Notes: generated from the letters alone by a model not told the origin. A DNA stretch of 64,000 nucleotides from Candidatus Woesearchaeota archaeon (GCA_964447685.1 CAYUTI010000001.1:40338-104337), one strand, 5' to 3'. Shown: positions 4,084 through 31,735, counted from the first letter of the stretch. A program made the numbers and translations.

Positions 4084-4099
4084 TAGTTTGATTTATTTT

Positions 4100-6733: not shown

Positions 6734-6771
6734 TTCGTTAACTTTAAATAAGCTTTTTTCTTCTTTATTTT

Positions 6772-12777: not shown

Positions 12778-14766
12778 ATGAAAAAAAGAGGACAGGTTAC
12801 TTTATTTATCATAATTGGAATTGTCTTAGTTGTTTTAATAAGTAGCGTTTATATGTATCGTGATAGGTTGTTTACAAGTTCTTGGGAAAATGAATTAGAG
12901 AAGAGTGCAGTTGTTCCTGATCAAGCTCAAGGTATTAAAAATTTTGTGGATGATTGTTTGTATGAAGTTAGTAATGAAGCTTTAATTAAGTTAGGAACTC
13001 AAGGTGGTTATGTCAATATTCCTGGTCAAAGTTATTATGGTAATGTTGGTTTGAGTGGAAATAGATTAAGTATGTTTTCTAATAATGCTTTGGAAGTTGC
13101 TTATTGGTTGTATACTGAATCAAATGGTGTACAAAAGTTAGCAGTACCCTCGATTGATATGATGGAAAGAGAATTAAATGGTTATGTTAAAGAAGGTTTT
13201 ATTGAATGTATTGGTGGATTTAGTGATTATGAAGCACAAGGGTATTATATTGAGTATGGTTCTGTTGTTGTTGAGAGTGATATTCGTGAAGAAGATGTTT
13301 TGTTTAAAGTTACTATGCCTTTACATATTGAGATTAATGATTTTAGTTTTGATTTCTTACCTTTCTATAGAAGAGCTGAAGTTAAGTTTGGTAAGTTATT
13401 AGATTTAGCTTTTAAGATTATGGAAAAAGAGAATGAAGAGTATTTCTTTGAGGAAAAAGCTTTAGATATTTTGAGAGTTTATGACGAAGTTCCTTATGAT
13501 GGTGTTTTGATGGAGTGTTTGCCTAGATTTTGGACTGTGGAGGGTGTTAAAAGAGATTTTAGAAATATTTTGTTTAATAATATTCAATTTATTAAGGTCA
13601 AAAATACAGATTATAATACTGGAACTAAGTATAATTACTTTATCTGGGATGTAGGTGTTGATGAACCTGATTTACAAGTTAATTTCATGTATATGCCCGG
13701 TTGGCCAGTTGATTTTCTTGTTGAACCTAATGAGAATGGAGTTATGCAAAGTGAAAGCGTTACCACAAATGTTGCTTCTGGATTTGGAGCTGTTTTGAGT
13801 AGTATCATTTGTATGCATAATTATCACTTTGTTTATAGTATTAGATATCCTATTTTAGTTTCATTACATGATCCTGCTGCTTTAGATGGAGAAGGATTTA
13901 GTTTAAATTTTGCTTTACAAGCAATTATTGAAAATAATCAACCAAGAATGGATACAAGAAGTGGATTATATTATGGTGTTGAAGATGATGGTTATTGTGA
14001 GAGAGTTGGAAGTTTACTTAGTGTTGATAGTTTTGATGATGAAGGTTCTAGATTAGATAATGTTACAATTAGCTATAATTGTTTAGCTAGTAATTGTTTT
14101 ATTGGTAGAACTAATGAAGAAGGAATGTTAGACGAATTAGCACCGTCTTGTTTTAATGGGGTTTTAACTGCAACTAAAGAACCTGATTATCATAAGGATA
14201 GTGTGATTATTTCTACTAATACTGATGCAGGAGTAAGTGTTACTTTAGAGAAGTTTTATATTTTAAATTATAGTGTTGATGTTGTTCGGAAAGGTGCTTC
14301 TTTAAGTAGAGTTGGAAGTGAGTTAACTTCTAGTGAGAAAGCAGTTATTGTTCTGGAGAATGAAGAAAAAGATTACACTACAGTTTTAGTTTATCCAGAT
14401 ATGAAAGAGGTTAAATTAATCTCTGGTGATTATCAAGTACAAAGTTATATTTTAAGCGAAGGTAAAGTTAGTATTCCTGGTCAAACTATTAACAAATGTG
14501 TTGATGTTCCTAAAGATGGTTTATTAGGTATCATTGGTCAGACTAAACAAGAATGCTTTGATGTTAAGATTGATCCTGTTGAAGTTAATCAGGTAATGAG
14601 TGGAGGAAACTCCTATGATTGGAGAGTTACTAAATCAAGTTTGATTAATGGAGAAGAGATATTATTTTATATTCCTTATTATGGTGTAAGTAAGAGTATT
14701 GAAGATATAAATAGTACATTAAATCAAATAGAGGGAGGAGATGTTATTTATCCCAAGATAATATGA
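12778..14766 (+). CDS. large protein with class-III (prepilin-like) signal peptide
   Basis: The ATG at 12778 gives 'MKKRGQVTLFIIIGIVLVVLI', a [KR]G|Q cleavage-type motif plus a hydrophobic helix. The N-terminal ~90 aa are paralogous to the ORF at 24201. Confidence 0.7.
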   Translation: MKKRGQVTLFIIIGIVLVVLISSVYMYRDRLFTSSWENELEKSAVVPDQAQGIKNFVDDCLYEVSNEALIKLGTQGGYVNIPGQSYYGNVGLSGNRLSMFSNNALEVAYWLYTESNGVQKLAVPSIDMMERELNGYVKEGFIECIGGFSDYEAQGYYIEYGSVVVESDIREEDVLFKVTMPLHIEINDFSFDFLPFYRRAEVKFGKLLDLAFKIMEKENEEYFFEEKALDILRVYDEVPYDGVLMECLPRFWTVEGVKRDFRNILFNNIQFIKVKNTDYNTGTKYNYFIWDVGVDEPDLQVNFMYMPGWPVDFLVEPNENGVMQSESVTTNVASGFGAVLSSIICMHNYHFVYSIRYPILVSLHDPAALDGEGFSLNFALQAIIENNQPRMDTRSGLYYGVEDDGYCERVGSLLSVDSFDDEGSRLDNVTISYNCLASNCFIGRTNEEGMLDELAPSCFNGVLTATKEPDYHKDSVIISTNTDAGVSVTLEKFYILNYSVDVVRKGASLSRVGSELTSSEKAVIVLENEEKDYTTVLVYPDMKEVKLISGDYQVQSYILSEGKVSIPGQTINKCVDVPKDGLLGIIGQTKQECFDVKIDPVEVNQVMSGGNSYDWRVTKSSLINGEEILFYIPYYGVSKSIEDINSTLNQIEGGDVIYPKII

Positions 14767-17700
14767 ATAGAAAAAGTTTGGTGATATTTTGTATCTTTTT
14801 ATTAATGAGTATTCCTTTTACTAGTGCGGAGATTGATTCTTCTGGATTAGATATTGAAACAACAGATATTAGTTCTGAAACTTTTGAGGGTGATACTGAA
14901 GATATTAGTGTTCAGGTTGGAAGTTATGAACCTCCAGTTTTAGTTTCTGCTTTATTAGAGCAACAACAAGTTCCTATTTATGCTAACTTATTTGCAATTA
15001 CTACAAAACCTTTAGCGAGTACTCCTGAAATTGAGAGAGTAAGTATTAGACAGGTAGGAGGTAATAGAAGTTATGTTGGTTCAGTAGGTTATCGTAAACC
15101 TGATCAATATTCTTTTGGTGATTTAGGTTATATTGAACTTCGTTTGAAACAAATTCCTAAAGAAAGTGATGTTCCTAACAATATTGAAGTTGATTTGGAA
15201 GCAGATATTCGGTTTAAGTATCAGGAAGAAAGTAGTGCTGGACAAGGAATAATTGGAATGAGGGTTTTGGAGGAAGATAATTTTTATGATGAAAAAGATC
15301 TTTATGCTATCCAAGAAGGCAGAGGGTATTTAAGACTAAGAAGTGTGGTTGGAACTACTGCTAATTTTGTACTTTATGATGAGTCTGTTAATGAGTTAAC
15401 TAAATTTGGTGTAAGAGAAGGTTCTGTGAGTAATACTTTAAGATTAGATAAAGAATCAAATGAGTATGAAGATAAAGTGCGGATTAGAGTTGATGATATT
15501 AAGAAAGGCGGAGTTAGAGCTGAAATTTCTATTGCTGAGGAGGATTATGAAGTCACTAAAGGAGATATGCTTGTTGAAGATTTCCCTTGGAAAGTTAGTG
15601 CTATCTCTCCTGCTAAAGATGGTAAAAAAGATTATATTGTTCTAACTCGTGGAAGTAATACGGTTTATATTGTTGAAGGTTATGAAAGTTTTAATGATTT
15701 GGAAACTTTGTATGATCATTCTAATCAGATGAGTACTGAAGTTGGATTAAAAAGTAGTGGCGAATCTGATGTTTCTGTAGGTACCTTTGGAGTTTATGAT
15801 AATAAAAGGCTTCTTGATTCTTTAGATTTGCTAAAAAGTGATCTTACTAAAAGTTTTGGTGAAGCTTATTATATTCATATAAAAAATATTAATGAGGAGA
15901 GTGAAGGTAAAGCTACATTTAGAGTTGCGGATAAAGATGGAAATGTTGCGGTAGTTACTCATGCTCTTGGTGAAGAACTTGCAAGAATAGAAGGTTGTAC
16001 AGTTATTAATGAAGATTATAAAAAATGTACTTTAGAAGATATTTCTGATAATTATGTTAAGATTCGGGTTCCTGTATTTGATACTAAAGAAAATGGAGAG
16101 AGAGTATGTAAGGCTGATAAAATTGTTCGTTTGAATTTGAATGATAATGATAATACTGATTTGATTTGTGATAAAACTTTTCAGTTAGCTAATATTGATT
16201 CTGGAGATGAAGTTGATGTTTCTGTCTTAGCCGGGGAGGGTGAAGGAAGAAGTTTATCTAGATTTAGTTTGAATATCCCTGTTGAGAAGAGACCTATTAA
16301 TCTTACTACTGATGAAATTGATAAACAAATAAATGAAACATTGGAGTTGATTGAAAACTTAAATAAAACTATTTCAACATTAGAAGAGTTTACTCAAACC
16401 TTGGCTTATGCTTGTTATGGTGTTATGGCTTTGGCTACTGTAGGAAGATTCTTTTCTTCTGGAGTAGGCCCTACTGCTAGATTAGAGGTTGCAGAAGTTT
16501 ATCATGATAGGTATGCTGATTATAAAACAAAAGGTGGAGATAAAACTTATAATGATTGGTTAAGGGATTCAAGTTTGGGAGGAGGAACTACGCAGTATGA
16601 AAAAGATGTTAGTGCTATGAGAAATTCTCTGAAGACCTATGAAGATCAAATTAAAAGTTTTAACTTTGATGAGGCGAGATTAAGTGATGTTTATGAAGGT
16701 GGAGATCCAAGAGGTTATGATCTGGCTAAAGGAGCAGGTAGTTTAAATTCTCAAGATCAAAAGGATTTAATCAGATATAAAATGATTATGGAAAATACTC
16801 CTGAAGGAAGTATATTATATACTGAAGCTGAATCAAATTATAATTCTATTGTAAAAAGAATTACAGAAGTTTCTGAGAATTATGATGATGTTCGGAGTGG
16901 TTTTGAACAAAGTGTTGCAGGTTTACATTTAACTGCTGGAACTGCAGGATATTTTGAAGCTTTAGCAGTTTACCAGAGAAGTGTTAGGACTGAAACAGAT
17001 GCTAAATCCTCTAAGTTAGATAAAAGTAAGATTTTCCAAGTGGAGGGTAAGTTTTATTATTATGATGGAACTCAACCTAAAGAATTAATTAAAATTGGAG
17101 ATTGTTATTCTCCTAAAGGTACAAGTGAGTGTTATAAAATTCAAGGTATGAATGTTAATGCTTATGACTTTGTAGGTACTCCTGATATTCAAGTTAATTC
17201 TAAAAAAATGGTTACGGTTTTACCTCTGACTACAGATAAGTGTTTTTACACTGGAAGCTCTACTGAAAATTTTGATCTTTATAAAAACGGGTTGTTTATT
17301 AGAATAGAATATCATCCTGATTATGGACGAGTAGAAAAAGTTTATCTGTATAATGTTGGACAAGATGGTGTAATTGGTGGGAAGGGTGATCAATTTGTAT
17401 CTTCTTATTCAAGGGATGAAACTGTAAATAAAGATGCGATTAGAGATTTCCAAAGATTTGAAAGTTGTATTAAGGATGCTAATGAAGCTGTTGCTAAGGG
17501 AGATAGTAAAGTAAGGTTTGAAGGTAAGAGTTATCAAGTTAATGATGAAACCACTACAGATAGAGTCGGTGGACAGTGTCAGGATGTAATGAGTGCAGGT
17601 ATGTGTAAGATGGTATTTTTAGTTTGTGATCCTGTTATGTGTCCTAGTTCAAGATGTAACCTTAATGGAAAATATCAAGTGGATAATGTAATACAGAGTG

Positions 17701-19850
17701 GTATTGTTGGAAGTGCGGTTTTATGTTTACCTAAGAGTGTTTGTTTATCTGGTATTGTTGCAGGTTTAAAAAATTTACAAAGTGTATTCCAAGGTTATCA
17801 TGATTGTTTGGTTTCTGCTAAGATTGAGCAGCAGAGTATTGGTATTTGTAATGAGATAAGAAGTATTTGGCTTTGTGATATTATCTGGAGAGAAGTAATG
17901 ACCATCCTAAAACTTAAGGGAGGTTTACTAAAGGGCATTTTTAACAAAGCTGAAGAGTTGAGTGGAGGAGGAGAATATGTTACAGGTGGTTATGAGAGTG
18001 CTAAACAAACTGTAGATTACTTTACTAATAATTATGCAAATAATGTTTTTGATTCATACAAAGGAAGAAGTACTAATGAGATTGGTGCAGAAATATGTAA
18101 GAGTGTTATTTTTGGAGAGGGTCCTAGTTTAGGTGATCTTTTTGAAGATGCAGTTCAATTACAAAATCCTGTTCAGTTTACTGCTTACTTCACTGAAGCT
18201 CCACATTCTGCTAGAGCAGGTACTTCTAGATATGATGTTTATTATCACATTTATGCAGGAGATGAAGATGTTAGTTTCCAGGTTTATTTGCAAGGGGCTG
18301 AGGGTAATGTTAAATTTGGAAGTGGAAGTTTGAGGCCTGGAGAGTTTGCTGATGAAAGTGTGTATAAGGTTGCTGGTTCAGGAATGCAGGAAATTTGTGT
18401 AGTTTTGAATGGTCAGAAAGAGTGTGGATTTGGTAAGATTGTAAGTTCAAGTGCGGCTATTAGTCAAATGGGTGATATGTATGCTAAATATAAATTGACA
18501 CAAAATGTTAATTCTGAAAGTGATTGTAGAGATGAGATGGGTGTTAATTTGGAGTGTGCTGTAAATAATCCTGGAAAACCTTATGGTGAAGATGATAAAT
18601 GGGTAGAAGTAGGTAGTTGTGGTAAGGATGATCTTGGTAATAGTTTAGGTAAGTGTTGGATGGAAAAAGAAAGTTTAAAAGATGCTACCTCGGGAAATGC
18701 AGGTAATATTGATGAGGAGATTTTAGAAGCTCAGTGTGATGCTTATGTTTGTGATTTGAGAACTAATACTTGTAATAATCAAGTTTATAAAATTAGTACT
18801 TATAGTTCATGTTGTAAAGATTCTACTGCTTGTGTTTCAGGAGATATAGAAGGTAATGCTTTAATTAATGAGGATGAGATTAATTATTTGAAAAGTAAAT
18901 ATGCTGAGGGTCTTGTTTCTGAATTAGTTAGTAAACTTAAAAATCTTGATTGTGAATTAAAAGTTGAGACTATGTCAAATGAAGTTTTAAATTATTATTC
19001 TGGAAGATGTTATTATCAACAAGCTTTCAGTTTGTCTGGTGAAAATCAAGAAGAAATGTTAGAGAAGGCTGAAAGTAAGTTTAGGAATGTTGCTAGTGGC
19101 GATCTTAATGTGTTGGCTAATTATTGGTTAGCTGAGATTTATATTAAACTTTGTAAGAAAAATAATTTTGAAGATGCTAAGAAAGTTTTTGAGAGGGGTG
19201 TTAGTGATAATAATTTGAAGAAAGTTTATGAAGGTTACTCTTTAGATGGTAAAGAAGTTAGTGATGATTGTGAGAAGGAGGACAGTAGTAGAGATGTCGT
19301 TCAAGTTAGTAAAGAGAATGAAGATGAAATATATGTTAAGGAAATTAAAATTGGAGATATAGTTGTTTATACTTATCCTGGTAGATTTAATGAGTTAGTT
19401 AAAGGGGGTTCTTATCCTTTAAAGGTGATTTTTAATAAAAATCCTGAAACTTTTAATCTTAAATTGGAGGGAGATAATGTTGAGTGCAGTATGGATAAAG
19501 ATTTTGAGTTTAGTTGTGGGGAAAATATTTTTGCTGGAAAAAATCAATATACTTTGTATTTTTCTGGAGGTGTTTTAACTGAATCTCTGTCTTTGATTCT
19601 TGAAAATAATGAAGAAACTGTTGAATCTGGGAAGGCCTTTCTTTGTAGGTTGCCTTATAGGGATGAAATTTATTATTATTGTTTAGATTCTGGAAGGTGT
19701 AGTGATTATGGTTTTTCTAATTTTAAAGTTTTTGGAGAAAAAAATCAAGAATTTTCAGGAAATGTTGTTTGTCAAAATACATGTAATAATTATGGAAAAG
19801 TTGATGATACTATATGCGATTTAGAGGGATTAGATAAATTTGCAAAATGA
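14763..19850 (+). CDS. giant secreted protein (1695 aa), no recognised domain
   Basis: Sec-type signal 'MNRKSLVIFCIFLLMSIPFTSA'. ATGA overlaps at both ends. Internal hydrophobic segment and a Cys-rich core. Confidence 0.8.
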   Translation: MNRKSLVIFCIFLLMSIPFTSAEIDSSGLDIETTDISSETFEGDTEDISVQVGSYEPPVLVSALLEQQQVPIYANLFAITTKPLASTPEIERVSIRQVGGNRSYVGSVGYRKPDQYSFGDLGYIELRLKQIPKESDVPNNIEVDLEADIRFKYQEESSAGQGIIGMRVLEEDNFYDEKDLYAIQEGRGYLRLRSVVGTTANFVLYDESVNELTKFGVREGSVSNTLRLDKESNEYEDKVRIRVDDIKKGGVRAEISIAEEDYEVTKGDMLVEDFPWKVSAISPAKDGKKDYIVLTRGSNTVYIVEGYESFNDLETLYDHSNQMSTEVGLKSSGESDVSVGTFGVYDNKRLLDSLDLLKSDLTKSFGEAYYIHIKNINEESEGKATFRVADKDGNVAVVTHALGEELARIEGCTVINEDYKKCTLEDISDNYVKIRVPVFDTKENGERVCKADKIVRLNLNDNDNTDLICDKTFQLANIDSGDEVDVSVLAGEGEGRSLSRFSLNIPVEKRPINLTTDEIDKQINETLELIENLNKTISTLEEFTQTLAYACYGVMALATVGRFFSSGVGPTARLEVAEVYHDRYADYKTKGGDKTYNDWLRDSSLGGGTTQYEKDVSAMRNSLKTYEDQIKSFNFDEARLSDVYEGGDPRGYDLAKGAGSLNSQDQKDLIRYKMIMENTPEGSILYTEAESNYNSIVKRITEVSENYDDVRSGFEQSVAGLHLTAGTAGYFEALAVYQRSVRTETDAKSSKLDKSKIFQVEGKFYYYDGTQPKELIKIGDCYSPKGTSECYKIQGMNVNAYDFVGTPDIQVNSKKMVTVLPLTTDKCFYTGSSTENFDLYKNGLFIRIEYHPDYGRVEKVYLYNVGQDGVIGGKGDQFVSSYSRDETVNKDAIRDFQRFESCIKDANEAVAKGDSKVRFEGKSYQVNDETTTDRVGGQCQDVMSAGMCKMVFLVCDPVMCPSSRCNLNGKYQVDNVIQSGIVGSAVLCLPKSVCLSGIVAGLKNLQSVFQGYHDCLVSAKIEQQSIGICNEIRSIWLCDIIWREVMTILKLKGGLLKGIFNKAEELSGGGEYVTGGYESAKQTVDYFTNNYANNVFDSYKGRSTNEIGAEICKSVIFGEGPSLGDLFEDAVQLQNPVQFTAYFTEAPHSARAGTSRYDVYYHIYAGDEDVSFQVYLQGAEGNVKFGSGSLRPGEFADESVYKVAGSGMQEICVVLNGQKECGFGKIVSSSAAISQMGDMYAKYKLTQNVNSESDCRDEMGVNLECAVNNPGKPYGEDDKWVEVGSCGKDDLGNSLGKCWMEKESLKDATSGNAGNIDEEILEAQCDAYVCDLRTNTCNNQVYKISTYSSCCKDSTACVSGDIEGNALINEDEINYLKSKYAEGLVSELVSKLKNLDCELKVETMSNEVLNYYSGRCYYQQAFSLSGENQEEMLEKAESKFRNVASGDLNVLANYWLAEIYIKLCKKNNFEDAKKVFERGVSDNNLKKVYEGYSLDGKEVSDDCEKEDSSRDVVQVSKENEDEIYVKEIKIGDIVVYTYPGRFNELVKGGSYPLKVIFNKNPETFNLKLEGDNVECSMDKDFEFSCGENIFAGKNQYTLYFSGGVLTESLSLILENNEETVESGKAFLCRLPYRDEIYYYCLDSGRCSDYGFSNFKVFGEKNQEFSGNVVCQNTCNNYGKVDDTICDLEGLDKFAK

Positions 19851-20554
19851 AAAAATTCCTTAAAATTTTAAAGTATGTTTTACCCCTTGATTTAGTTTGT
19901 GTTATCTTAAGTTATTTCTTACTTATCTTTGGTGTTGAGAAGTTATATAATTATTATGATGAGATTAGTTCTTTTGAGCCTTTAATCAATAGTATGGTTA
20001 ATAATCTTGATTTGAGTGCAATGAGTTCTGCTCTAGAAACTATTAATCAGAGTTTAGCTAATATGTATTTTATTATATTTGTTGGTGTGTTATTGTTATT
20101 TATGTTGATGATGTTTAGTCAGAGTATAAATTGGAAAATAAGTTCTGATGGTGCTAAGAGGTTGTTTGAAAATTATAATGAATATTTTTGGAATTTTGTT
20201 CTGATTAGTTTTGTATTTTTGGTTTTGCCTCTCCTATTCTTGAATGTGTTTGGTATTAAGATTTTCTTTTTCTTTTATTTAGTAATGGTATATTTTTGTT
20301 TAATTGGTTATGGGTTGTTAAATGAGTTTAATGGAGCTAAATTGTTTAATGAGATTTTTGTTAGAAGTTTTAAAGAAGTAAATTTGTTGTTGGTTTATTT
20401 AGGATTATTAGTTTTTGAGTTTGGTTGTTTTGTATTGTTTATGATAATGAGTAATATTTATTCTTTTTTGATTTCTGGTTTAGTTTGTGTTGTTTTAGCT
20501 TTGATAGGGTATGCTTGGGTCAGATTTTATTTTTGTGGTGTTCTTGGAGAATAA
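19847..20554 (+). CDS. polytopic membrane protein (YFWN-motif family)
   Basis: 235 aa with about 5-6 hydrophobic helices. 'YFWNFVLISFVFLVL' matches 'YFWNVVLLRFMIFLI' of the ORF at 29477. Confidence 0.7.
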   Translation: MKKFLKILKYVLPLDLVCVILSYFLLIFGVEKLYNYYDEISSFEPLINSMVNNLDLSAMSSALETINQSLANMYFIIFVGVLLLFMLMMFSQSINWKISSDGAKRLFENYNEYFWNFVLISFVFLVLPLLFLNVFGIKIFFFFYLVMVYFCLIGYGLLNEFNGAKLFNEIFVRSFKEVNLLLVYLGLLVFEFGCFVLFMIMSNIYSFLISGLVCVVLALIGYAWVRFYFCGVLGE

Positions 20555-24175: not shown

Positions 24176-24200
24176 ATATTATATTCTTTATATTTTCTCT

Positions 24201-24965
24201 ATGAAAAAGAGAGGTCAGGTTACTATATTAATTATTATGGGTCTTGTTGTAGTTGTAGTTGTTGGTTTGTTAATTTTTATTTTAATCCGATCTAATACAA
24301 ATATGGATTCTACTACCCCTGGTATTGTTTCTGAGGATATTACTAGTACTCTTAGTGAAGAGATTGAAAGTTGTATGGATGCAGGTTTATTAGATGCTCT
24401 TGATTTGGTTTATTATTATGGAGGGCATTTACAATCTACTCCTTATAATTTTACTTATTCTGGTAGATTAGTTAATTTGTTATGTTATGATGAAAAGGAT
24501 GGAATGATAAGTTTTCTAAATCCTAATTTTATTATTGAGAACAAAATCTCTAATTATGTGGTTCAATATACCTCTGAATGCATGAACTTTGAAAAATATG
24601 AAAGAGAAGGATATGTTATTGAAAAAGAAATACCCTCTGCTGAAGTTTTAATCGGCGATAAAAAAGTTTCAGTTGTATTAAGTTGGGTTGTTAGTTTTAA
24701 TAGAGAAGGTTCCACTAATAGATTAGAAGAATTTTCAGTTTCTGTTAATTCTGGTTTAGGTACTTTACTAGACATAGTTAATGATATTGTAGAGGAAGAG
24801 ATTATTGATGATTTTACTGGTCAAGAGTTGGTTGATTATAGGTTAACTATAGATCCTACTTTAAAAATTGTTAGAGATGATATTACCTCTTCGGTGAGTG
24901 TTTATAATCTAACTTATCCAAAAGAGCAAAATAGTTTCTATTTTGGTTGTAGGAGGACTAAATGA
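24201..24965 (+). CDS. protein with class-III (prepilin-like) signal peptide, short paralogue of 12778
   Basis: 'MKKRGQVTILIIMGLVVVVVV'. 'EEIESCMDAGLLDALDLVYYYGGHL' aligns with 'KNFVDDCLYEVSNEALIKLGTQGGYV' of the 669-aa protein. Confidence 0.7.
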   Translation: MKKRGQVTILIIMGLVVVVVVGLLIFILIRSNTNMDSTTPGIVSEDITSTLSEEIESCMDAGLLDALDLVYYYGGHLQSTPYNFTYSGRLVNLLCYDEKDGMISFLNPNFIIENKISNYVVQYTSECMNFEKYEREGYVIEKEIPSAEVLIGDKKVSVVLSWVVSFNREGSTNRLEEFSVSVNSGLGTLLDIVNDIVEEEIIDDFTGQELVDYRLTIDPTLKIVRDDITSSVSVYNLTYPKEQNSFYFGCRRTK

Positions 24966-27900
24966 AGAAATTCCTTTTAATGTTTTTATTATGTGTGGGA
25001 TTGGTTAGTGCTGCTACGGATTATTGTTGTGAAAAAACTTTAGAGGGTGAATACTGTGTGGATACGGATTATTCTGATTGTGATTTGAGTTATCAGTTTT
25101 TAGGAGTACCTTGTTCTGAGACTACCTTTTGTGAGAGAAGTTGTTGTGTTACAGAGGCAGGTTGTTATTCTGGAATCCGTGAAGGAAGATGTATTTATTC
25201 TTTAGGAGGGGATTCAGAACCGGGTGATTGTGATATCTATCAAGGTATTATTCCTGAGTGTACAATGGGGTGTTGTAACATTAATGGCATGGATTGTTCT
25301 GAAACTAATCAACTTAAATGTACTGAACAAGGTAATCTATCTGGCGGAAATTATACTTTTTATATGGGTATGAGTGAGAACCAATGTTTATCAATGTGTG
25401 AGATTGAAGATGTTAAAGGTTGTTGTGTTGATGAGAGTGGTTATTTTTATACTTCAAGAGGATTATGTTTGGGAGAATTTAATGAAGGTCAGTATTGTAG
25501 TAGTATTTCTGGAAGTGGATGTACTGCTAGATTTAATAAAGGTTGTGATAATGGTGATGTAATTTGGTATGATTCTTGTGGAAATTATGAAGGTATTGCT
25601 GAAGATTGTGATTTGGGTCAAGCTACAACTTGTGGTTGTGATTATTCTTATTATGCTAGTGATTGTAATTCTTATGATTTGAAATGTAAATTCTTAGGTT
25701 GTGATACTTTAGAGGGAAATAAATCTTTTAATCAAACTTGGTGTGATATTATGCCTGAAGATAATGATCCTAGAGTTTTTGAGCCTGAAAGATTTATGTG
25801 GCATAAGTTTACAACAAGTTTAGAAAGTTCTGGAACTTGTACTAGCGAGGATGGTATGGAAAATTTGGTGAAGAGTATCCCTGGCAACTTGGCTGGCGGA
25901 ACTTTTATTGATAATATAGGTGATGTTGTTTTAGAGGTTGTGGATTGGGTTCTTTATACTCCTATTTTTGTTGGATGGCGTTTTGTTCTTGAACCTGTTT
26001 TTGATTCTATCCTTGGATGTGGAACCACCACTATTTGTCATGATATCCTACAACCAATTATTCCTGATTATAGTTTTATTGGAGGGGAAGGCATTTGTAA
26101 TTTTGGAGAGTGTAGTGATATGGGCTTATTTATTACTTGCGATACTCAAAGTCCTCCGGGAGGATTATGTGAATGGGAACCTAATGCTGAATTTGCTGCA
26201 ACTTCTGATGATGGAGATAAAGGAGGAACACCCGCTTATTTGAATATTAAAGCTGATTCTGATCTTAAATGGTTTGGAATTTTTAAAGGTGAAACTTGTG
26301 ATAATTCTCGTACTAAATTTACTGCTCAAGCTTATTTTGATTTAGTTGATGGGGTGGGTTTTATTTCAGTTCCAGATAAAGAGGGTTATGAATTTGGGGA
26401 TAGACATTTTGTAAAAACTTGTAGTTATGGGGAAGAAGTTCTTTTGGAAGCTTGTGATGAAGATAGAGGAGAAGTTTGTATTGATGGAGCTTGTATGAGA
26501 AATGATTATAAAAGTTGTAATAATTGTGGTATTAATTGTACTCAAGAACAATGTGAAGCTTTAGGAGATTGTGAGTTAATCCCTATGTGGTATGGTTGTC
26601 ATGGAAGGGATTGTGATGAAGAATGGGCAAGTGGAAAAATAGATTATGCTTCTGATAAATGGTTTGGTAAACTAACTTGTGTTCCTAAATATCCTCCTGG
26701 AACAGGAAATACTTGTGGAAATTGTTATGATGAAGACTATGATGAAGACACTGCAAAAGGATTTCATTACTTACCTTTGCCTTATCCCGAATTTTGGGAG
26801 AGTGAATCTGATCTTCCATATATAGATTGTCCTGGATGTGTTGAGCAATGGCAGTGTGGAAATCAAGAATGTTCTAGAGAAGGAGATTGTTATTGGACTT
26901 TTGAATTTCCTGTTAATACTGATGAAGAAATTGAAGCTGCTGAAGAAAATGATTTACCTCTTGTTAAATATGCACATACTTATTGTTTACCTATTGAACC
27001 TCCTGAATTTGGAAATTGTAGTGTTTGTAATGGAAATGATTTAAGACCTTGTAGTAAATATACTTGTGAAGCTTTAGGTAAGAATTGTAATTTTGATAGA
27101 GAGATTAACTTTTGTTATTCAAATGGAAGTAATTATACTATCGCTCCTGTTGAGCTAAAGGTTGGAGAGTTCTTTGAAAAACCTTGTACGGATAAATGGT
27201 ATTGTAGTCCTTGGAGTACATGCGGTAGTGTTTATGATACTAGAACTAGAACTTGTATAGAAATTAATGGTTGTAATGTTATTAGTAATAAACCTGATCC
27301 TTTTGAAAGTCAAGCATGTAGTCAGACTTTAGAGTGTGAAGATAAGGATGGGGATGGTTATGGCAGGAATTGTTTTGAAGAGTTAAGTGGAACTTTAATT
27401 GATAAACAAAAGGATTGTAATGATGAAGCTTTTAATATAAACCCTTCAGCTATGGAAGTTTGTGATGGCATTGATAATGATTGTGATAATGCGATTGATG
27501 AGACCTGTGCTTGTGTTCAGGGAGATAGTAGAAACTGCGGTGTTACTACTGGAACTTGTAACCAAGGAATTCAATTTTGTGTTAATGGTGTTTGGAGTAT
27601 CTGTGGAGGAAATTCTTATACTTCAATAACTGAAGAGATTTGTGATGAAATTGATAATGATTGTGATGGACAGGTTGATGAAGTTTGTGCTTGTTTAGAT
27701 GGGGCTACTCAGCAATGTGGTAGTGATAAAGGCGTTTGTACTAAAGGAACACAAACTTGTGTTGATGGGAATTGGACAATCTGTGAAGGTGGTTTTGATG
27801 GTAATGCTGAGATTTGTACTAATACTTTAGATGATGATTGTGATGGTCTAATCGATAGTTTAGATGATAATTGTCAGGTTACAACTGAACTTTGTTATGA

Positions 27901-28387
27901 TCATATTCAGAATGGAAATGAAGAAGGAGTAGATTGTGGAGGAAGTTGTACTAGTTGTTCTATAATTAAAGATCCTACTTGTGATGATTTTATTAGAAAC
28001 CAGGGTGAAGATCAGGTAGATTGTGGAGGGCCTTGTGATCCTTGTGAAGATATAGTTTATGTTGAAGGTGAAATGGATGAAGAAGAAGAGATAGTTTATG
28101 AAGAAGAAGGTGATTCTGATGAAGGAAGTAACTTCCCTTGGTTTTGGCTGATTTTATTTTTAATAATCTTATTAGTTTTAGCTGGAGGTTATTATCTTTA
28201 TAGATCTAGAAATTTAAAAAATAAGAAAAGTCCAGAGCCTGTTAAAAATCTTGAGAGAAAAGTTTTAGTAAGTAAACCTCCTGCTCCTAAAAAAGAGATT
28301 ATTACTACTCAGAAACCTAAAAAACAATTTAAGAGCGAATTGGATGAACGGTTAGAAAAGAGTTTTGAGGAAGCTAAAAAACTTTAA
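24962..28387 (+). CDS. 1141-aa Cys-rich surface protein with C-terminal TM anchor
   Basis: Signal 'MKKFLLMFLLCVGLVSA', dense Cys throughout, and a mosaic of Cys modules. C-terminal 'FPWFWLILFLIILLVLAGGYYLY' is followed by a Lys-rich tail. Confidence 0.8.
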   Translation: MKKFLLMFLLCVGLVSAATDYCCEKTLEGEYCVDTDYSDCDLSYQFLGVPCSETTFCERSCCVTEAGCYSGIREGRCIYSLGGDSEPGDCDIYQGIIPECTMGCCNINGMDCSETNQLKCTEQGNLSGGNYTFYMGMSENQCLSMCEIEDVKGCCVDESGYFYTSRGLCLGEFNEGQYCSSISGSGCTARFNKGCDNGDVIWYDSCGNYEGIAEDCDLGQATTCGCDYSYYASDCNSYDLKCKFLGCDTLEGNKSFNQTWCDIMPEDNDPRVFEPERFMWHKFTTSLESSGTCTSEDGMENLVKSIPGNLAGGTFIDNIGDVVLEVVDWVLYTPIFVGWRFVLEPVFDSILGCGTTTICHDILQPIIPDYSFIGGEGICNFGECSDMGLFITCDTQSPPGGLCEWEPNAEFAATSDDGDKGGTPAYLNIKADSDLKWFGIFKGETCDNSRTKFTAQAYFDLVDGVGFISVPDKEGYEFGDRHFVKTCSYGEEVLLEACDEDRGEVCIDGACMRNDYKSCNNCGINCTQEQCEALGDCELIPMWYGCHGRDCDEEWASGKIDYASDKWFGKLTCVPKYPPGTGNTCGNCYDEDYDEDTAKGFHYLPLPYPEFWESESDLPYIDCPGCVEQWQCGNQECSREGDCYWTFEFPVNTDEEIEAAEENDLPLVKYAHTYCLPIEPPEFGNCSVCNGNDLRPCSKYTCEALGKNCNFDREINFCYSNGSNYTIAPVELKVGEFFEKPCTDKWYCSPWSTCGSVYDTRTRTCIEINGCNVISNKPDPFESQACSQTLECEDKDGDGYGRNCFEELSGTLIDKQKDCNDEAFNINPSAMEVCDGIDNDCDNAIDETCACVQGDSRNCGVTTGTCNQGIQFCVNGVWSICGGNSYTSITEEICDEIDNDCDGQVDEVCACLDGATQQCGSDKGVCTKGTQTCVDGNWTICEGGFDGNAEICTNTLDDDCDGLIDSLDDNCQVTTELCYDHIQNGNEEGVDCGGSCTSCSIIKDPTCDDFIRNQGEDQVDCGGPCDPCEDIVYVEGEMDEEEEIVYEEEGDSDEGSNFPWFWLILFLIILLVLAGGYYLYRSRNLKNKKSPEPVKNLERKVLVSKPPAPKKEIITTQKPKKQFKSELDERLEKSFEEAKKL
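27197..27277 (+). other. thrombospondin-type-1-like Cys module
   Basis: 'WYCSPWSTCGSVYDTRTRTCIEINGCN' resembles the TSP1 pattern WSxWSxC..RxRxC. Confidence 0.45.
27455..27874 (+). repeat. three tandem ~60-aa Cys modules with DNDCD motif
   Basis: 'EVCDGIDNDCDNAIDETCAC', 'EICDEIDNDCDGQVDEVCAC' and 'EICTNTLDDDCDGLIDSLDDNC' start at 27455, 27635 and 27809. They resemble the MopE-type putative metal-binding motif. Confidence 0.7.
27893..28045 (+). repeat. two tandem NG..E..VDCGG.C..C modules
   Basis: 'CYDHIQNGNEEGVDCGGSCTSC' and 'CDDFIRNQGEDQVDCGGPCDPC'. Confidence 0.7.
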
Positions 28388-29429
28388 TTAATCTTTTTAT
28401 TTCTAAATCTGTTTTTATTGCTTCTGGTGCAAAATGTGTTCTTGAAGCTTTGTAACCTTTTGATTTTATCTTTTTAATTATTTCTTCTACTTTTGGTATT
28501 TCTTTTTTGTAAACTTTTCCTATTCTGTGAGTATCATAATAAAAAGGAATTGGAAGTTCTTGTTTTATTGTTTCTATTAATGGGATAGTTATTGGTTTTA
28601 GAATCTCTTTATCTTGAATTTCTTTTGAATAAATTGGTCCTGCATATTGTATTGGTTTTTTACAATTTGGACACGTTTTTTCTAAAGGTAAGGTGTTTAG
28701 ATTTCTGTATAAACATTTTGGGCAGTATTCTAAGTATTTCTGTTCTTTAAGAACATTATCTGTTTCTGTAATTGATTTTTTTGAGATTAAGAAAGTTCTC
28801 ATATAGTGATGAATAGAATAGGATAAAATTGGAATTAATGCCTTTTCATATTGAGCTGCTATGTTTTGAGCTTTAGTTATTAGAATTCTTGTACCGAGTT
28901 CTTTACTAAATTCTGTTTTTAAAGGTTTTATAGAATATTTTCTTAGACAAGCTTTTTCTGAAGATCCTGTTAATGCTGCGGTATCTGTTGCTGTTAAAGC
29001 TAATATTCCATTGTGTTTTAATGCTCTCACTGCTGTATCTAAAAAATGAATTGGTGGTCCGAAAGGGTCTATATCAATATAATCATAACCTTCTGATTCT
29101 TTTAGTAGAAGGTTAGCGTCTTTGTTGGTTGTAGTTGCTTTGAGATTATTTAATTTTAGATTCTTTCTTATTAAGTTGTAAGAAGTTTTATCTACATCAT
29201 TGATTGTTACATCTTTTGATTTAGTTTCTTTTAAAATTCTTAAGCCTCTTATACCTGTTCCTGCTAGAGGTAAACAAATAGATTTTGGTTTTAATGTTTT
29301 AATTATTTCTATTGAGATATCTCTATTAAGTTTCATTAGAGGATTATAAAACACTGGAAGTTTCTTTGATATTTTAGTTTCTTTTGGAATATAAAATTTT
29401 ACATGATTTTCTTCTGATATCTTAAACAT
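28374..29429 (-). CDS. trm1: tRNA (guanine26-N2)-dimethyltransferase Trm1
   Basis: 'FYNPLMKLNRDISI', 'PFGPP' and a Cys4 finger 'CPKC..CPNC'. Confidence 0.9.
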   Translation of the reverse strand: MFKISEENHVKFYIPKETKISKKLPVFYNPLMKLNRDISIEIIKTLKPKSICLPLAGTGIRGLRILKETKSKDVTINDVDKTSYNLIRKNLKLNNLKATTTNKDANLLLKESEGYDYIDIDPFGPPIHFLDTAVRALKHNGILALTATDTAALTGSSEKACLRKYSIKPLKTEFSKELGTRILITKAQNIAAQYEKALIPILSYSIHHYMRTFLISKKSITETDNVLKEQKYLEYCPKCLYRNLNTLPLEKTCPNCKKPIQYAGPIYSKEIQDKEILKPITIPLIETIKQELPIPFYYDTHRIGKVYKKEIPKVEEIIKKIKSKGYKASRTHFAPEAIKTDLEIKRLIKVF

Positions 29430-29476
29430 GTCTATTTAGGTAAAGTTTTTAAATTAAAAGGGTTTCGTTTTTTAGT

Positions 29477-30274
29477 ATGTATAAAGAAGTTTTTTTTAAG
29501 AGTTGGAAGGGTTTGTTTAATAATCTTTATTTGATCATTCCTGACTTACTCTATTTAGCATTTATGACTGGATTAGGATTAGTATTAGCTTGGTTTGGTG
29601 GTTTTTGGGGCGTGTTTGATTATTTTTTAGGTGGAGTTACTCCTTCTACTGAATCTGTTTTGAATTTTTTAGAGATAAATTGGATTAAACTGTTGATTTC
29701 TGCGATAATATTTTTTATTAGTAGTTTTATGGTTGGTGCATCTATTGTAGCTTTTAAGTATATCTTGATGAAGAATATTGTAATGGGGAATAAATTTAGT
29801 TTTATTCGCGTTTATAAGACTGTAGGAGGATATTTTTGGAATGTGGTTTTGTTGAGGTTTATGATCTTTTTAATTATGATCCCTGTTTTTGTTTTGTGGG
29901 GACTTATGTTCTATCTTGGCTTTGAAAATCAAGGCTATCTTCTTAAAATTCTTGGGCTTATAGTTATGATCCTGAGTATGGTTCTTGTTAAATGGGTGTT
30001 TTTATTTGTTTATCCAGTTATGTTTTTGAAAAGTAATAATGCGTATAAATCTTTGAAAGGGTCATTTGCCTTTTTTAAGAATCATTTTAAGATTGTGTTG
30101 TTTTCTTGGTTGATTTTAGTATTTGCTGCAGGGGTATTTAGCGCAATTGTTTCTTTGTTAAGCTCTTTTATTGTAGGAATCATCTTAGTATTCGCTATTA
30201 GATCTACTTTAAATGTTTTTATTAAAGTTTGGGGAGAACTATTCCTGTTTTATATTTATGACCTAAAGAGTTAG
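29477..30274 (+). CDS. polytopic membrane protein (YFWN-motif family), paralogue of 19847
   Basis: 265 aa, multi-TM. It shares the 'YFWN[FV]VL' segment and overall layout with the 235-aa protein. Confidence 0.65.
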   Translation: MYKEVFFKSWKGLFNNLYLIIPDLLYLAFMTGLGLVLAWFGGFWGVFDYFLGGVTPSTESVLNFLEINWIKLLISAIIFFISSFMVGASIVAFKYILMKNIVMGNKFSFIRVYKTVGGYFWNVVLLRFMIFLIMIPVFVLWGLMFYLGFENQGYLLKILGLIVMILSMVLVKWVFLFVYPVMFLKSNNAYKSLKGSFAFFKNHFKIVLFSWLILVFAAGVFSAIVSLLSSFIVGIILVFAIRSTLNVFIKVWGELFLFYIYDLKS

Positions 30275-31156: not shown

Positions 31157-31207
31157 AGAAAATATATATTGGAAAGGTTTTTAAATAGTTTTTGTTTTAG
31201 TTTTTAT

Positions 31208-31735
31208 ATGGTTAAGAAGGTTAAAGCCACTTTAGTGAAAGAAATGGTCTTAGCTGATGACTGTAACGAGACTCGTGAGTTGTATAATAGTTCTCGGTAT
31301 GGAGAGCCAGTTGATGGTCGATTTCAGTATAGTTTAGTGGAAGCTTTATTCTTATTTGAAACTAATAAGTTACTTCTTTATGATTACCGTAAGAAGAAAT
31401 TAGACTTTAAGAGTTTTTTAGCTAGAGTTGTTAAAATTGATTCTGGTTTCTTAGTTCGATATAATGTTTATAAAGATTTGAGGAAGAGAGGTTATATTGT
31501 TAAAACTGCTTTAAAGTTTGGAGCTGGTTTTAGAGTTTATGATAGAGGTGTTAAACCTGGTGATGATCATGCTAGGTGGGTAGTTTTTCCTGTTCATGAG
31601 GCTGATCACTTTACTTGGTATGAATTTGCTGCTAAAAATAGAGTTGCTCATAGTACTAGGAAGAAATTATTGTTAGGTGTAGTTGATGATGAGGGTGATG
31701 TGAGTTATTGGGAAAGCTCATGGGTTAAACCTTAG
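31208..31735 (+). CDS. endA: tRNA-splicing endonuclease EndA (short, ~176 aa)
   Basis: 'RGYIVKTALKFGAGFRVY' and 'HARWVV'. The start is placed at the ATG at 31208, since the longer ORF overlaps rnz. Confidence 0.85.
   Translation: MVKKVKATLVKEMVLADDCNETRELYNSSRYGEPVDGRFQYSLVEALFLFETNKLLLYDYRKKKLDFKSFLARVVKIDSGFLVRYNVYKDLRKRGYIVKTALKFGAGFRVYDRGVKPGDDHARWVVFPVHEADHFTWYEFAAKNRVAHSTRKKLLLGVVDDEGDVSYWESSWVKP

What the first reader, a model, noticed from the sequence alone, without database searches (positions are those of the whole stretch)
24186..30274. Second, diverged copy of the same three-part module, interrupted by trm1
The ORF at 24201 begins 'MKKRGQVTILIIMGLVVVVVV'; its first 8 residues are identical to those of the 12778 protein. 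It also shares a downstream block: 'EEIESCMDAGLLDALDLVYYYGGHL' versus 'KNFVDDCLYEVSNEALIKLGTQGGYV'. It is ATGA-coupled at 24962 to another giant secreted Cys-rich protein of 1141 aa. The membrane protein at 29477 shares 'YFWN[FV]VL[IL].F' and its overall layout with the 19847 membrane protein. Here it is separated from the giant gene by the opposite-strand trm1. The two giants do not look homologous to each other. The pattern is therefore a conserved 'pilin-like + membrane' chassis with a variable cargo. Two copies within 18 kb of a very compact genome imply strong selection.
Basis: seen in the sequence. Interest (0 to 1): 0.75.

Follow-up and report, generated by a model that had tools for sequence, protein, structure and literature searches.

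The report
Paired pilin-like and giant surface genes
This tiny-genome (DPANN, Woesearchaeota-like) archaeon carries two related but distinct gene pairs, each a pilin-like membrane protein coupled to its own giant secreted protein; both pairs are widespread in this group and probably display large proteins on the cell surface, while the supposed third "membrane" part of the second copy is an unrelated housekeeping neighbour.

Summary
The sequence observations hold. The three-part reading holds only for the first module.

**The pilin-like genes are true homologues.** The 24201 ORF ("pilB", 254 aa) is homologous to the N-terminal ~230 aa of the 12778 protein ("pilA"), beyond the shared MKKRGQVT leader.

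**The two giants are unrelated.**

**The two membrane proteins are not detectably homologous.**
- The 29477 protein sits in a conserved membrane-protein/RNase Z/tRNA-endonuclease block in five other contigs.
- In the closest relative found, TFB is directly followed by that block. So pilB, the 24962 giant ("giantB") and trm1 look inserted here.

**pilB and giantB are not orphans.**
- A metagenome scan found 289 pilB relatives.
- Of 58 short (235-285 aa) copies with a downstream ORF, 42 are followed at once by a Cys-rich secreted protein. Its N-terminal ~250 aa ("CCEKT") matches giantB.
- No relative of either membrane protein lies near these pairs.

**Pairing is subtype-specific.** Long pilA-type genes (about 600-740 aa) pair with the giantA family. 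That family corresponds to the known large "lytic transglycosylase" proteins of Woese-/Pacearchaeota.

**Interpretation.** These are ancient paralogous two-gene cassettes, each a pilin-like adaptor with its own giant partner. Surface display or attachment is inferred, not shown.

The parts
24201..24965 (+). pilB: short pilin-like protein (254 aa). It has a class III-type leader MKKRG|QVT plus a hydrophobic helix, a conserved alpha/beta ectodomain with two invariant Cys (C58, C127), and a ~50 aa tail.
   Evidence: Homologous to pilA residues 1-~230. Full-length member of a 241-278 aa subfamily (family HMM E 1.2e-56 over HMM positions 1-245; 289 metagenome relatives). AF2 core pLDDT >90; no PDB fold match at E <= 1e-3.
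24951..24965 (+). Translational-coupling junction: AGGAGG (24951-24956), then ATGA where the giantB start codon overlaps the pilB stop codon.
   Evidence: Read directly from the sequence. The same -4 overlap recurs among pilB-type loci (some have other short overlaps or gaps) and is found in most pilA-type loci.
24962..28387 (+). giantB: 1141 aa Cys-rich (103 Cys) secreted, membrane-anchored protein.
   Evidence: ORF and composition. Not a giantA-family member.
24962..25741 (+). giantB N-terminal domain (residues 1-260): Sec signal peptide plus the 'CCEKT..G..C' Cys-rich domain. This domain defines the partner family of pilB-type genes.
   Evidence: BLASTP E 1e-8 to 3.5e-24 against the proteins directly downstream of pilB-type genes in about 25 loci. 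The family-1 HMM finds such a partner after 42 of 58 short pilin-like genes.
27182..28054 (+). giantB residues 741-1031: region containing the MopE-type putative metal-binding repeats.
   Evidence: Pfam PF11617, E 4.4e-15, 3 stretches. About 42% identical to ORFs in L009 and L078, and 38% to a stand-alone 468 aa protein in L089.
28133..28387 (+). giantB C-terminal TM anchor (residues ~1058-1080) and Lys-rich cytoplasmic tail.
   Evidence: Hydropathy scan and sequence.
12778..14766 (+). pilA: long pilin-like protein (662 aa). It has the same leader and N-domain, plus beta-sandwich domains.
   Evidence: 46 relatives in the protein database and 174 species genomes. AF2 pLDDT 83.6. The low-TM, domain-level fold matches are to multi-domain beta-sandwich surface proteins (TIE, SlaB, SdrD, Gram-positive pilins), presumably through the beta-rich part of the model.
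14763..19850 (+). giantA: 1695 aa secreted giant, cognate partner of pilA.
   Evidence: ATGA-coupled. Homologous giants follow the pilA-type gene in nearly all loci with enough sequence (tblastn hits in 80 loci). Relatives carry SLT or Metallophos domains; giantA itself has no SLT domain.
19847..20554 (+). memA: 6-TM protein, third gene of module A only.
   Evidence: The memA-family HMM hits a gene downstream of the giant in 28 other pilA-type loci.
28374..29429 (-). trm1 (tRNA m2,2G methyltransferase): a neighbour, not part of the cassette. Its 3' end overlaps the giantB 3' end by 14 nt (convergent).
   Evidence: Pfam TRM, E 1.2e-98.
29477..30274 (+). memB: polytopic membrane protein, NOT part of the cassette. 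It belongs to a conserved memB / RNase Z (minus strand) / EndA block.
   Evidence: Family of ~170 representatives. Synteny in L085-L089. L087 has the order S8e-TFB-memB-RNaseZ-EndA without pilB/giantB/trm1. Absent near all other pilin-like cassettes.

Best explanation
The region holds a two-gene cassette, not a three-part module.

**What the cassette is.** pilB is a small protein with an archaeal type IV pilin-like (class III) N-terminus and a conserved disulfide-type alpha/beta ectodomain. It is translationally coupled to giantB, a Cys-rich, Sec-secreted protein anchored by a C-terminal TM helix.

**How it relates to module A.** It is an ancient paralogue of pilA+giantA(+memA). Only the pilin-like N-domain is shared.

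**Pairing rule.** Each pilin-like subtype is tied to its own partner family:
- Long pilA-type genes pair with the giantA family. That family corresponds to the 'large lytic-transglycosylase proteins' described for Woese-/Pacearchaeota.
- Short pilB-type genes pair with 'CCEKT' Cys-rich proteins.
- A third short subtype pairs with a Cys-poor 630-760 aa family.

**Likely mechanism (inferred, not shown).**
1. The pilin-like protein is processed by the FlaK/PibD-type prepilin peptidase.
2. It is held in the membrane or in a short type IV pilus-like fibre.
3. Its ectodomain docks the N-terminal domain of the cognate giant.
4. The giant is thereby displayed on the cell surface for attachment to, or attack on, other cells.

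**The neighbours.** trm1 and the 29477 membrane protein are unrelated. The latter belongs to a conserved block with RNase Z and the tRNA-splicing endonuclease.
For: **Shown: pilB and pilA share a homologous N-domain.**

**Shown: the pilB-type pair is conserved.**
- The metagenome scan found 289 pilB relatives.
- Of 58 short copies with a downstream ORF, 42 have a giantB-type Cys-rich partner starting within a few bases.
- The cassettes are often tandemly repeated.

**Shown: the pilA-type pair is conserved.**
- The pilA-type gene is ATGA-coupled to a giantA homologue in nearly all loci with enough sequence.
- Subtype and partner family track each other: 77 giantA-family partners follow 599-739 aa pilin-like genes, and 36 Cys-rich partners follow 250-278 aa genes.

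**Shown: both types coexist in another genome.** An 829,411 bp genome, presumably AR20, holds both (L023 and L108).

**Shown: a fusion exists.** A single 860 aa protein in L089 joins the pilin-like N-domain to a Cys-rich stretch matching giantB 479-588.

**Shown: memB is excluded.**

**Supporting the inferred steps.**
- The leader K[KR]G-Q-V-T is nearly invariant in the pilA family, which was retrieved with an unrelated pattern.
- Woesearchaeota, including AR20, are reported to encode flaI, flaJ and flaK (PMC5994134).
- GiantA-family members carry SLT domains, interpreted in the literature as binding or degrading bacterial cell walls (PMC8204110, PMC9723730).
Against: - No pilin Pfam or NCBIfam model matches either protein.
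- The pilB ectodomain model has no pilin or other PDB fold match.
- The predicted N-terminal helix ends at about residue 33, rather than forming the long alpha-1 helix of classical pilins.
- No pilus ATPase, platform protein or prepilin peptidase was found. A Walker-A-type motif search of ORFs in the window and held loci found only SRP54/FtsY-like sequences, and a Pfam scan of 10 window proteins found none.
- Cleavage of the leader and any physical pilin-giant contact are untested.
- The N-terminal motif conservation in the metagenome set is partly imposed by the search pattern used.
Confidence: 0.6

Rival explanations
1. One reading: a three-part module built on a conserved 'pilin-like + membrane protein' chassis, with an exchangeable giant cargo between them. 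Here the second copy is split by trm1.
For: - Module A really is three-part: a memA-family gene lies downstream of the giant in 28 other loci.
- Both membrane proteins are ~235-265 aa with 6 TM segments.
- Both share an aromatic-aromatic-W/L-basic motif at a similar position. Global hhalign aligns it in register with 27.7% probability.
Against: - The memA-memB alignment is at chance level (z 1.9).
- Family HMMs do not cross-hit.
- Local hhalign probability is 3.8-13.6%.
- memB-family genes are absent from all 80 pilB-type loci and from the 83 other loci held around pilA-type genes.
- memB keeps its RNase Z/EndA neighbours in five other contigs. In L087 it directly follows TFB, with no pilin-like gene present.
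Confidence: 0.05
2. The conserved N-terminus is an uncleaved signal-anchor rather than a pilin signal. Each pair would then be a two-component envelope structure, with a membrane-anchored stalk and a large outer protein, comparable to SlaB/SlaA S-layers. No pilus machinery would be involved.
For: - The pilA model hits S-layer stalk protein SlaB and other multi-domain beta-sandwich surface proteins.
- There are no pilin family or fold matches.
- No pilus genes are linked to the cassettes.
- giantB has its own C-terminal membrane anchor.
Against: - The K[KR]G-Q-V-T motif is near-invariant right at the start of the hydrophobic helix. That is hard to explain for a plain TM anchor, and it matches archaeal prepilin cleavage sites (KG|Q; my own knowledge of EppA/PibD substrates).
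- pilB-type loci often continue with four small proteins that have similar leaders, like minor-pilin sets.
- Giants with SLT or phosphoesterase domains, and with very variable lengths, do not look like lattice-forming S-layer proteins.
Confidence: 0.22
3. The pilin-like protein is a dedicated export or folding helper for its giant partner. It would act as a pseudopilus-like piston (as in type II secretion) or a membrane-tethered chaperone for disulfide-rich giants. It would not be a structural carrier.
For: - Coupling is tight, consistent with 1:1 translational coupling, and the pairing is cognate.
- The partners are very large and, for giantB, extremely Cys-rich.
- Thioredoxin-like membrane proteins occur elsewhere in the window.
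Against: - The partners carry ordinary Sec signal peptides.
- pilA has about 400 extra residues containing beta-sandwich domains typical of exposed surface proteins.
- The L089 fusion protein would put helper and cargo in one chain.
Confidence: 0.12
4. The pilA/pilB resemblance is only compositional (signal peptide and hydrophobic helix), and the adjacency to giants is coincidence.
For: The strongest part of the pairwise alignment is the first 25 residues.
Against: - z is 6-8 without the first 30 residues.
- Cys, GG and other columns are invariant across the ectodomain.
- HMM matches cover about 200-245 positions.
- The pairing is seen in more than 100 independent loci.
Confidence: 0.01

Closest known systems
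[quoted passage not shown]
   Same: giantA is a clear homologue of these giants. It matches the giants in L002 and L003 at E 3e-80 and 7e-79, and its own family HMM at E ~0. The presumed AR20 member (L023) carries SLT at E 1e-22. Taxonomic range, size and N-terminal signal peptide are the same.
   Different: giantA lacks the SLT insert: it has 1 residue in those alignment columns and no Pfam hit. The papers I read do not mention the obligatory upstream pilin-like gene or the downstream 6-TM gene. giantB is not in this family at all.
Bacterial type IV pilus minor-pilin / PilY1 (PilC) tip-adhesin complexes; also the large DUF2341 proteins proposed as tip adhesins in Methanococcus pilus loci (PMC4858521)
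   Same: A pilin-type protein is encoded next to a ~1000+ aa non-pilin secreted protein that is thought to be presented by it. The small-pilin-like gene sets in some loci resemble minor-pilin operons.
   Different: There is no sequence or fold similarity to PilY1, DUF2341 or known pilins. The cassettes are not linked to pilus assembly genes. Here the pilin-like gene and the giant are a strict translationally coupled pair with subtype-specific pairing.
Modular type IV pilins (e.g. Streptococcus sanguinis PilB with a grafted adhesion module; PMC8179133)
   Same: pilA (662 aa), the 743 aa and 860 aa relatives carry extra modules grafted behind a pilin-like N-terminus. The L089 860 aa protein carries a giantB-like Cys-rich module.
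   Different: The grafted modules and the core domain are unrelated to those of bacterial modular pilins. In the window the 'module' is a separate gene.
Two-component archaeal S-layers (SlaA/SlaB of Sulfolobus)
   Same: A membrane-anchored beta-sandwich-rich protein is paired with a much larger outer protein. The pilA model matches SlaB chain 8qox_B at E 6e-7.
   Different: The TM score is only 0.13-0.18, which is domain-level similarity. The anchor is N-terminal with a prepilin-like motif rather than C-terminal. The giants are enzyme-bearing and highly variable.
GPDPase_memb / DUF7544 / DUF7847-type polytopic membrane proteins
   Same: A minority of memB-family members give weak Pfam hits to these families: 7, 4 and 3 of 60 members, best E 5e-7. 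Size and TM layout are similar.
   Different: The window's memB itself gives no hit. This concerns only the neighbour gene, not the cassette.

Membership tests
Archaeal type IV pilin-like (class III signal peptide) proteins | Short basic leader, Gly/Ala at -1, then ~20 hydrophobic residues at the extreme N-terminus | tested here: met
   pilB and pilA both have MKKRG|QVT followed by a hydrophobic helix. G5 and Q6 are invariant, and K3, T8 and G14 are nearly invariant, in the pilA family, which was retrieved with an unrelated pattern. The same holds in 70 short relatives, but there it is biased by the search pattern.
Archaeal type IV pilin-like (class III signal peptide) proteins | Match to curated pilin / class III signal models (Pfam, NCBIfam) | tested here: not met
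   No pilin-type family at E <= 0.1 for pilA or pilB. No PDB sequence match for the N-domain profile.
Archaeal type IV pilin-like (class III signal peptide) proteins | Pilin fold: long N-terminal alpha-helix packed on a beta-sheet or Ig-like head | tested here: inconclusive
   The models have a helix at residues 4-31/33, a break, then a helix-sheet-helix domain. Foldseek finds no pilin match for pilB (best E 1.2e-3, TM 0.19, unrelated protein).
Archaeal type IV pilin-like (class III signal peptide) proteins | Prepilin peptidase plus assembly ATPase and platform protein in the same genome | not testable with these tools
   None was found in the 64 kb window, based on a Pfam scan of 10 window proteins and a Walker-A-type motif search of window and held-locus ORFs. 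The rest of the genome is not available. The literature reports flaI/flaJ/flaK in Woesearchaeota, including AR20 (PMC5994134).
Woese-/Pacearchaeota large extracellular transglycosylase-domain proteins (fam00969) | Sequence homology to the family's giants, with signal peptide and size above 1,000 aa | tested here: met
   Met for giantA. Not met for giantB (HMM E 0.21).
Woese-/Pacearchaeota large extracellular transglycosylase-domain proteins (fam00969) | SLT (GH23) lytic transglycosylase domain | tested here: not met
   giantA has no Pfam hit at E <= 0.1. It has 1 residue in the alignment columns of the L023 (presumed AR20) SLT insert. SLT is present in the L023 and L003 relatives.
Short pilin-like + 'CCEKT' Cys-rich partner cassette (defined here) | 241-285 aa pilin-like protein matching the family HMM over its full length | tested here: met
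   pilB scores E 1.2e-56 over HMM positions 1-245.
Short pilin-like + 'CCEKT' Cys-rich partner cassette (defined here) | Immediately downstream Sec-secreted Cys-rich protein with the conserved ~250 aa N-domain | tested here: met
   giantB residues 1-260 match about 25 such partners at E 1e-8 to 3.5e-24. It starts at an ATGA overlap.
   See for homology and co-occurrence, and for synteny.
MopE-type putative metal-binding repeat proteins (PF11617) | Repeats above Pfam's gathering score | tested here: met
   giantB scores 56.1 bits against a cut-off of 27, with 3 stretches, e.g. residues 818-847. Metal binding itself was not tested.

The most novel reading that the evidence does not exclude
The conserved alpha/beta ectodomain behind the K[KR]GQVT leader is a previously unrecognised docking adaptor. 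Woese-/Pacearchaeota would use it to mount interchangeable families of giant proteins on a type IV pilus-like fibre or stalk. Those partners are lytic-transglycosylase giants, Cys-rich 'CCEKT' proteins and a third Cys-poor family. This would be the physical apparatus by which these ultra-small archaea seize, and perhaps breach, host cells. Cassette duplication, as in this window and in tandem arrays elsewhere, would diversify host range.
Probability: 0.3. Interest if true: 0.8.

Novelty: new variant of a known kind. Interest (0 to 1): 0.6.

Why it matters
Woesearchaeota and Pacearchaeota are abundant, uncultured archaea with tiny genomes. They are believed to live attached to other cells, but how they attach is unknown.

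The giant transglycosylase-bearing proteins were already flagged as candidates. This analysis adds three points:
- These giants are always encoded behind a pilin-like gene.
- A second, equally widespread cassette couples a shorter paralogue to Cys-rich giants.
- Pairing is subtype-specific.

This gives a concrete, testable hypothesis: pilin-like adaptor plus cognate giant equals surface display unit. It also supplies sequence profiles for annotating hundreds of 'hypothetical' genes.

Finally, it corrects the idea of a shared membrane component. The 29477 gene belongs instead to a conserved tRNA-processing neighbourhood.

Tried and rejected
**Searches that misled or failed**
- Word-indexed protein searches with pilB and with giantB residues 1-780 found only the query itself. 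This wrongly suggested orphans. The relatives are ~22-30% identical and appeared only with a pattern/profile scan.
- The search for related loci with broad alignments failed for lack of a conserved stretch. No context scan could therefore be run for the memB family. I used exact-sequence contig look-ups instead.

**Homology tests that came back negative**
- memA versus memB: pairwise comparison, shuffles, HMM cross-search and two hhalign runs were all negative or marginal.
- giantA versus giantB: pairwise and HMM tests were negative.
- Partner N-domains of the three families compared by hhalign: matches of only 4-19 columns at the N-terminal, signal-peptide end, probability 15-34%. So I found no shared 'docking' domain on the giant side.

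**Structure and family searches**
- Fold search of the pilA model gave only domain-level beta-sandwich matches (TM <= 0.18).
- Fold search of the pilB model gave nothing at E <= 1e-3.
- PDB sequence searches gave nothing.
- NCBIfam gave nothing.

**Other**
- A Walker-A-type motif search for pilus ATPases in ORFs of the window and held loci found only SRP54/FtsY-like sequences.
- Literature searches found the transglycosylase giants, but nothing on the pilin-like partner or the Cys-rich cassette.
- dN/dS was not attempted. The closest pilB relative is only ~28-30% identical.

Full report
**Setting**

The window is AT-rich (GC about 0.27-0.35). It encodes archaeal housekeeping genes: TFB, ribosomal protein S8e, trm1, an RNase Z-like metallo-beta-lactamase, a tRNA-splicing endonuclease homologue, and SRP54/FtsY-like GTPases. 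The best matches of its genes are MAGs labelled Woesearchaeota, Nanoarchaeota or 'archaeon'. I use these names:
- pilA: 12778-14766
- giantA: 14763-19850
- memA: 19847-20554
- pilB: 24201-24965
- giantB: 24962-28387
- memB: 29477-30274

**Checking the observation**

- pilA and pilB both begin MKKRGQVT followed by a hydrophobic helix.
- The pilB stop and giantB start overlap as ATGA at 24962-24965, with AGGAGG seven bases upstream.
- giantB has 103 cysteines (9.0%), a Sec-type signal peptide, three MopE-type repeats (Pfam E 4.4e-15), a C-terminal TM helix and a Lys-rich tail.
- The opposite-strand gene is trm1 (Pfam TRM, E 1e-98).

**Are the pilin-like proteins related?** Yes.
- BLASTP gives 27% identity over 159 residues, E 2e-5.
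- A Smith-Waterman shuffle test gives z = 14 for the full proteins. After deleting the first 30 residues z is still 6-8, and none of 500 shuffles reach the score.
- pilB also hits the N-terminal ~200-235 residues of pilA-type genes in 52 other loci, down to E 3e-17.
- An alignment shows invariant columns through the ectodomain: two Cys, GG, and several Tyr, Glu, Gly and Asp positions.
- So pilB corresponds to the N-terminal domain of pilA, plus a ~50-residue tail of its own.

**Are the giants related?** No.
- BLASTP best E is 0.21 and shuffle z is 1.05.
- An HMM built from 60 giantA-family members scores giantB at E 0.21.

**Are the membrane proteins related?** Not detectably.
- The pairwise score is reached by 27 of 500 shuffles (z 1.9).
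- memB has about 170 relatives at the 50% cluster level. memA has a family of its own downstream of giants.
- HMMs of the two families do not cross-hit.
- Profile-profile comparison gives 3.8%, 13.6% (local) and 27.7% (global) probability.
- The quoted YFWN motif is typical of the memB family. It is not conserved in the memA family, where the commonest residues at the first five motif positions are Y, L, L, K, F.
- A very remote relationship cannot be excluded, but nothing supports it.

**Module A is a real, widespread unit**

A scan of one genome per species found 174 species with a pilA relative. I examined the 80 fetched loci, plus loci found through exact protein look-ups.
- The pilA-type gene (about 600-740 aa) is followed, usually with the same 4-base overlap, by a 1,400-3,300 aa protein homologous to giantA.
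- A memA-family 6-7-TM protein lies downstream of the giant in 28 other loci.
- Relatives of giantA carry variable enzyme domains. SLT lytic transglycosylase occurs in L003 and in L023, which is from the complete genome of archaeon GW2011_AR20. A calcineurin-like phosphoesterase occurs in L011.
- giantA itself lacks the SLT insert.
- The papers I read mention neither the upstream pilin-like gene nor the downstream membrane gene.

**memB is a housekeeping neighbour**

Exact-sequence look-ups of four memB relatives gave five contigs. In every one the gene is followed by an opposite-strand RNase Z-like gene and then a tRNA-splicing endonuclease gene, exactly as in the window.

In L087 the order is memA-like, L37e, LSM, S8e, TFB, memB, RNase Z, EndA. 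L087 comes from MAG ARS1414. Its TFB is 88% identical and its LSM 82% identical to the window's. The window has the same order, with pilB, giantB and trm1 sitting between TFB and memB. The simplest reading is that these 5.3 kb were inserted or rearranged into a conserved block.

The memB-family HMM finds no member in the 83 other loci held around pilA-type genes, nor in the 80 loci around pilB-type genes. A few memB relatives give weak Pfam hits to GPDPase_memb, DUF7544 or DUF7847.

**pilB and giantB are not orphans**

Word-indexed searches had found nothing. A metagenome scan with an N-domain alignment led by pilB found more than 600 pattern matches, 289 of them confirmed as relatives. In the best 80 loci:
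- 69 encode short proteins of 235-285 aa, like pilB. pilB matches the HMM built from them at E 1.2e-56 over its full length.
- Of the 58 short copies with a downstream ORF, 42 are followed at once by a Cys-rich secreted protein. Its N-terminal ~250 residues begin 'CCEKT..G..C' after the signal peptide and are homologous to giantB residues 1-260 (E 1e-8 to 3.5e-24).
- Eight more are followed by a different, Cys-poor family of about 630-760 aa.
- The cassettes are often repeated in tandem. In several loci they are followed by four small proteins with similar leaders, and they often lie downstream of PCNA.
- Locus L108 lies on a contig of 829,411 bp, the same length as the AR20 chromosome. AR20 therefore presumably carries a pilB-type cassette about 200 kb from its pilA-type one.
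- Of the 85 sequences searched with the pilB-family HMM (all loci held at that point plus the window), only the window contains both types.

**Pairing rule**

I clustered the downstream partners by their first 350 residues.
- 77 giantA-type partners sit behind pilin-like genes of 599-739 aa.
- 36 Cys-rich partners (including giantB) sit behind genes of 250-278 aa.
- 6 Cys-poor partners sit behind genes of 241-253 aa.
- The three partner N-domains are not detectably related to each other.
- In L089 an 860 aa protein joins the pilin-like N-domain (HMM E 7e-30) to a Cys-rich extension that aligns with giantB 479-588 with matching Cys spacing. This is a gene-fusion hint that the two kinds of protein work together.

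**Structure and family searches**
- The pilA model (pLDDT 83.6) has an N-terminal helix, an alpha/beta domain and a long beta-rich remainder. Its fold matches are low-TM, domain-level hits to multi-domain beta-sandwich surface proteins: B. anthracis TIE, SlaB, SdrD and Gram-positive pilins.
- The pilB model has a confident core (pLDDT >90 for 115 residues) but no PDB fold match at E <= 1e-3.
- Pfam, NCBIfam and PDB sequence searches give nothing for the pilin-like proteins, giantA, memA or the giantB N-domain.

**How it most likely works**

*Shown:* two paralogous, translationally coupled gene pairs with subtype-specific pairing, conserved across many genomes.

*Inferred:*
- The K[KR]G|QVT leader is a prepilin-type (class III) signal. 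It is invariant at G and Q even in the pilA family, which was retrieved with an unrelated pattern. It resembles the KG|Q cleavage sites of archaeal pilins (my own knowledge).
- Woesearchaeota are reported to encode flaI, flaJ and flaK (PMC5994134).
- I therefore propose that the pilin-like protein is cleaved and held in the membrane or in a short pilus-like fibre, and that its ectodomain docks the N-domain of its cognate giant.
- The giant is thereby displayed for adhesion. For SLT-bearing relatives of giantA, it could also attack bacterial cell walls.

*Against this:*
- There are no pilin model or fold matches.
- No linked pilus machinery was found.
- giantB has its own membrane anchor.

*Main rival (about 0.2):* an uncleaved signal-anchor stalk plus outer protein, forming an S-layer-like two-component envelope structure. 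A dedicated export-helper role is a lesser rival.

**Verdict**

The 'second copy of the same three-part module' is instead a different, two-gene member of a wider cassette superfamily. The membrane gene and trm1 are unrelated neighbours.

As far as I could find, neither the coupling of a pilin-like adaptor to the known transglycosylase giants nor the second Cys-rich cassette has been described. Function remains inferred.

Noticed in passing
window 28374-31735; L085-L089: The memB-family membrane gene is consistently embedded among RNA-processing genes. RNase Z (opposite strand, 3' ends overlapping by 12 nt in several genomes) and tRNA-splicing endonuclease lie downstream. Upstream is trm1 here, RtcA in L088 and TFB in L087. 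This is a conserved neighbourhood of unknown meaning for a polytopic membrane protein.
   Followed up: partly
window 56867-60220, 60207-61814, 62522-63052: More secreted proteins lie near the end of the window. One is a 1117 aa Cys-containing protein with a lipoprotein-like 'LSGC' start and no Pfam hit. It overlaps the start of a PQQ/beta-propeller protein. A third is a 176 aa protein with 14.8% Cys. This may be another surface-protein cluster.
   Followed up: partly
window 55080-55661 (-) and 61825-62385 (-): Two small proteins with hydrophobic N-termini. The first has weak thioredoxin-fold hits (E 3.5e-4). It is a possible extracytoplasmic disulfide-handling factor, which would be relevant to the many Cys-rich secreted proteins.
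   Followed up: partly
L099, L103, L108, L127, L128, L143, L158 (downstream of the Cys-rich partners): Many pilB-type loci continue with a conserved run of four small (about 140-350 aa) proteins. Each has a basic leader plus hydrophobic helix, like a minor-pilin set. In some loci a further, likely secreted protein follows. PCNA is a frequent upstream neighbour (Pfam-confirmed in L108).
   Followed up: partly
L101, L121, L128, L143, L154, L158, L160: In a 'short' variant the Cys-rich partner (about 500-700 aa, 6-9% Cys) is followed by a 594-802 aa protein with 1-4 hydrophobic segments. That protein has a conserved N-terminus of the type 'KG.xAxxQIxILxxG'. The 1,100-1,400 aa partners in other loci may be fusions of the two.
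   Followed up: no
L089 999-7912: Right next to a memB homologue lies a stand-alone 468 aa protein that is 38% identical to giantB 741-1141 (MopE repeats, TM anchor and tail). It is followed by a 972 aa protein, and on the opposite strand by the 860 aa pilin-like/Cys-rich fusion. This is the only other case seen of pilin-like genes beside the memB block.
   Followed up: partly
L004 5589-12232: A distant pilA relative (743 aa) sits last in a four-gene operon (1018, 176, 279 and 743 aa) rather than first. This is a different arrangement of what may be the same system.
   Followed up: no
window 12529-12614: tRNA-Thr(TGT) is 86 nt long, longer than the neighbouring 74-75 nt tRNAs, so it possibly contains an intron. 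tRNA-Thr and tRNA-Val lie directly upstream of pilA.
   Followed up: no
window 1891-8124 versus L007, L048, L059: SRP54- and FtsY-like GTPase genes lie upstream of the pilA-type cassette. In L007, L048 and L059 the SRP54-like gene lies about 4-9 kb upstream; in the window the distance is about 4.7-11 kb. Module A may therefore occupy a syntenic position.
   Followed up: no
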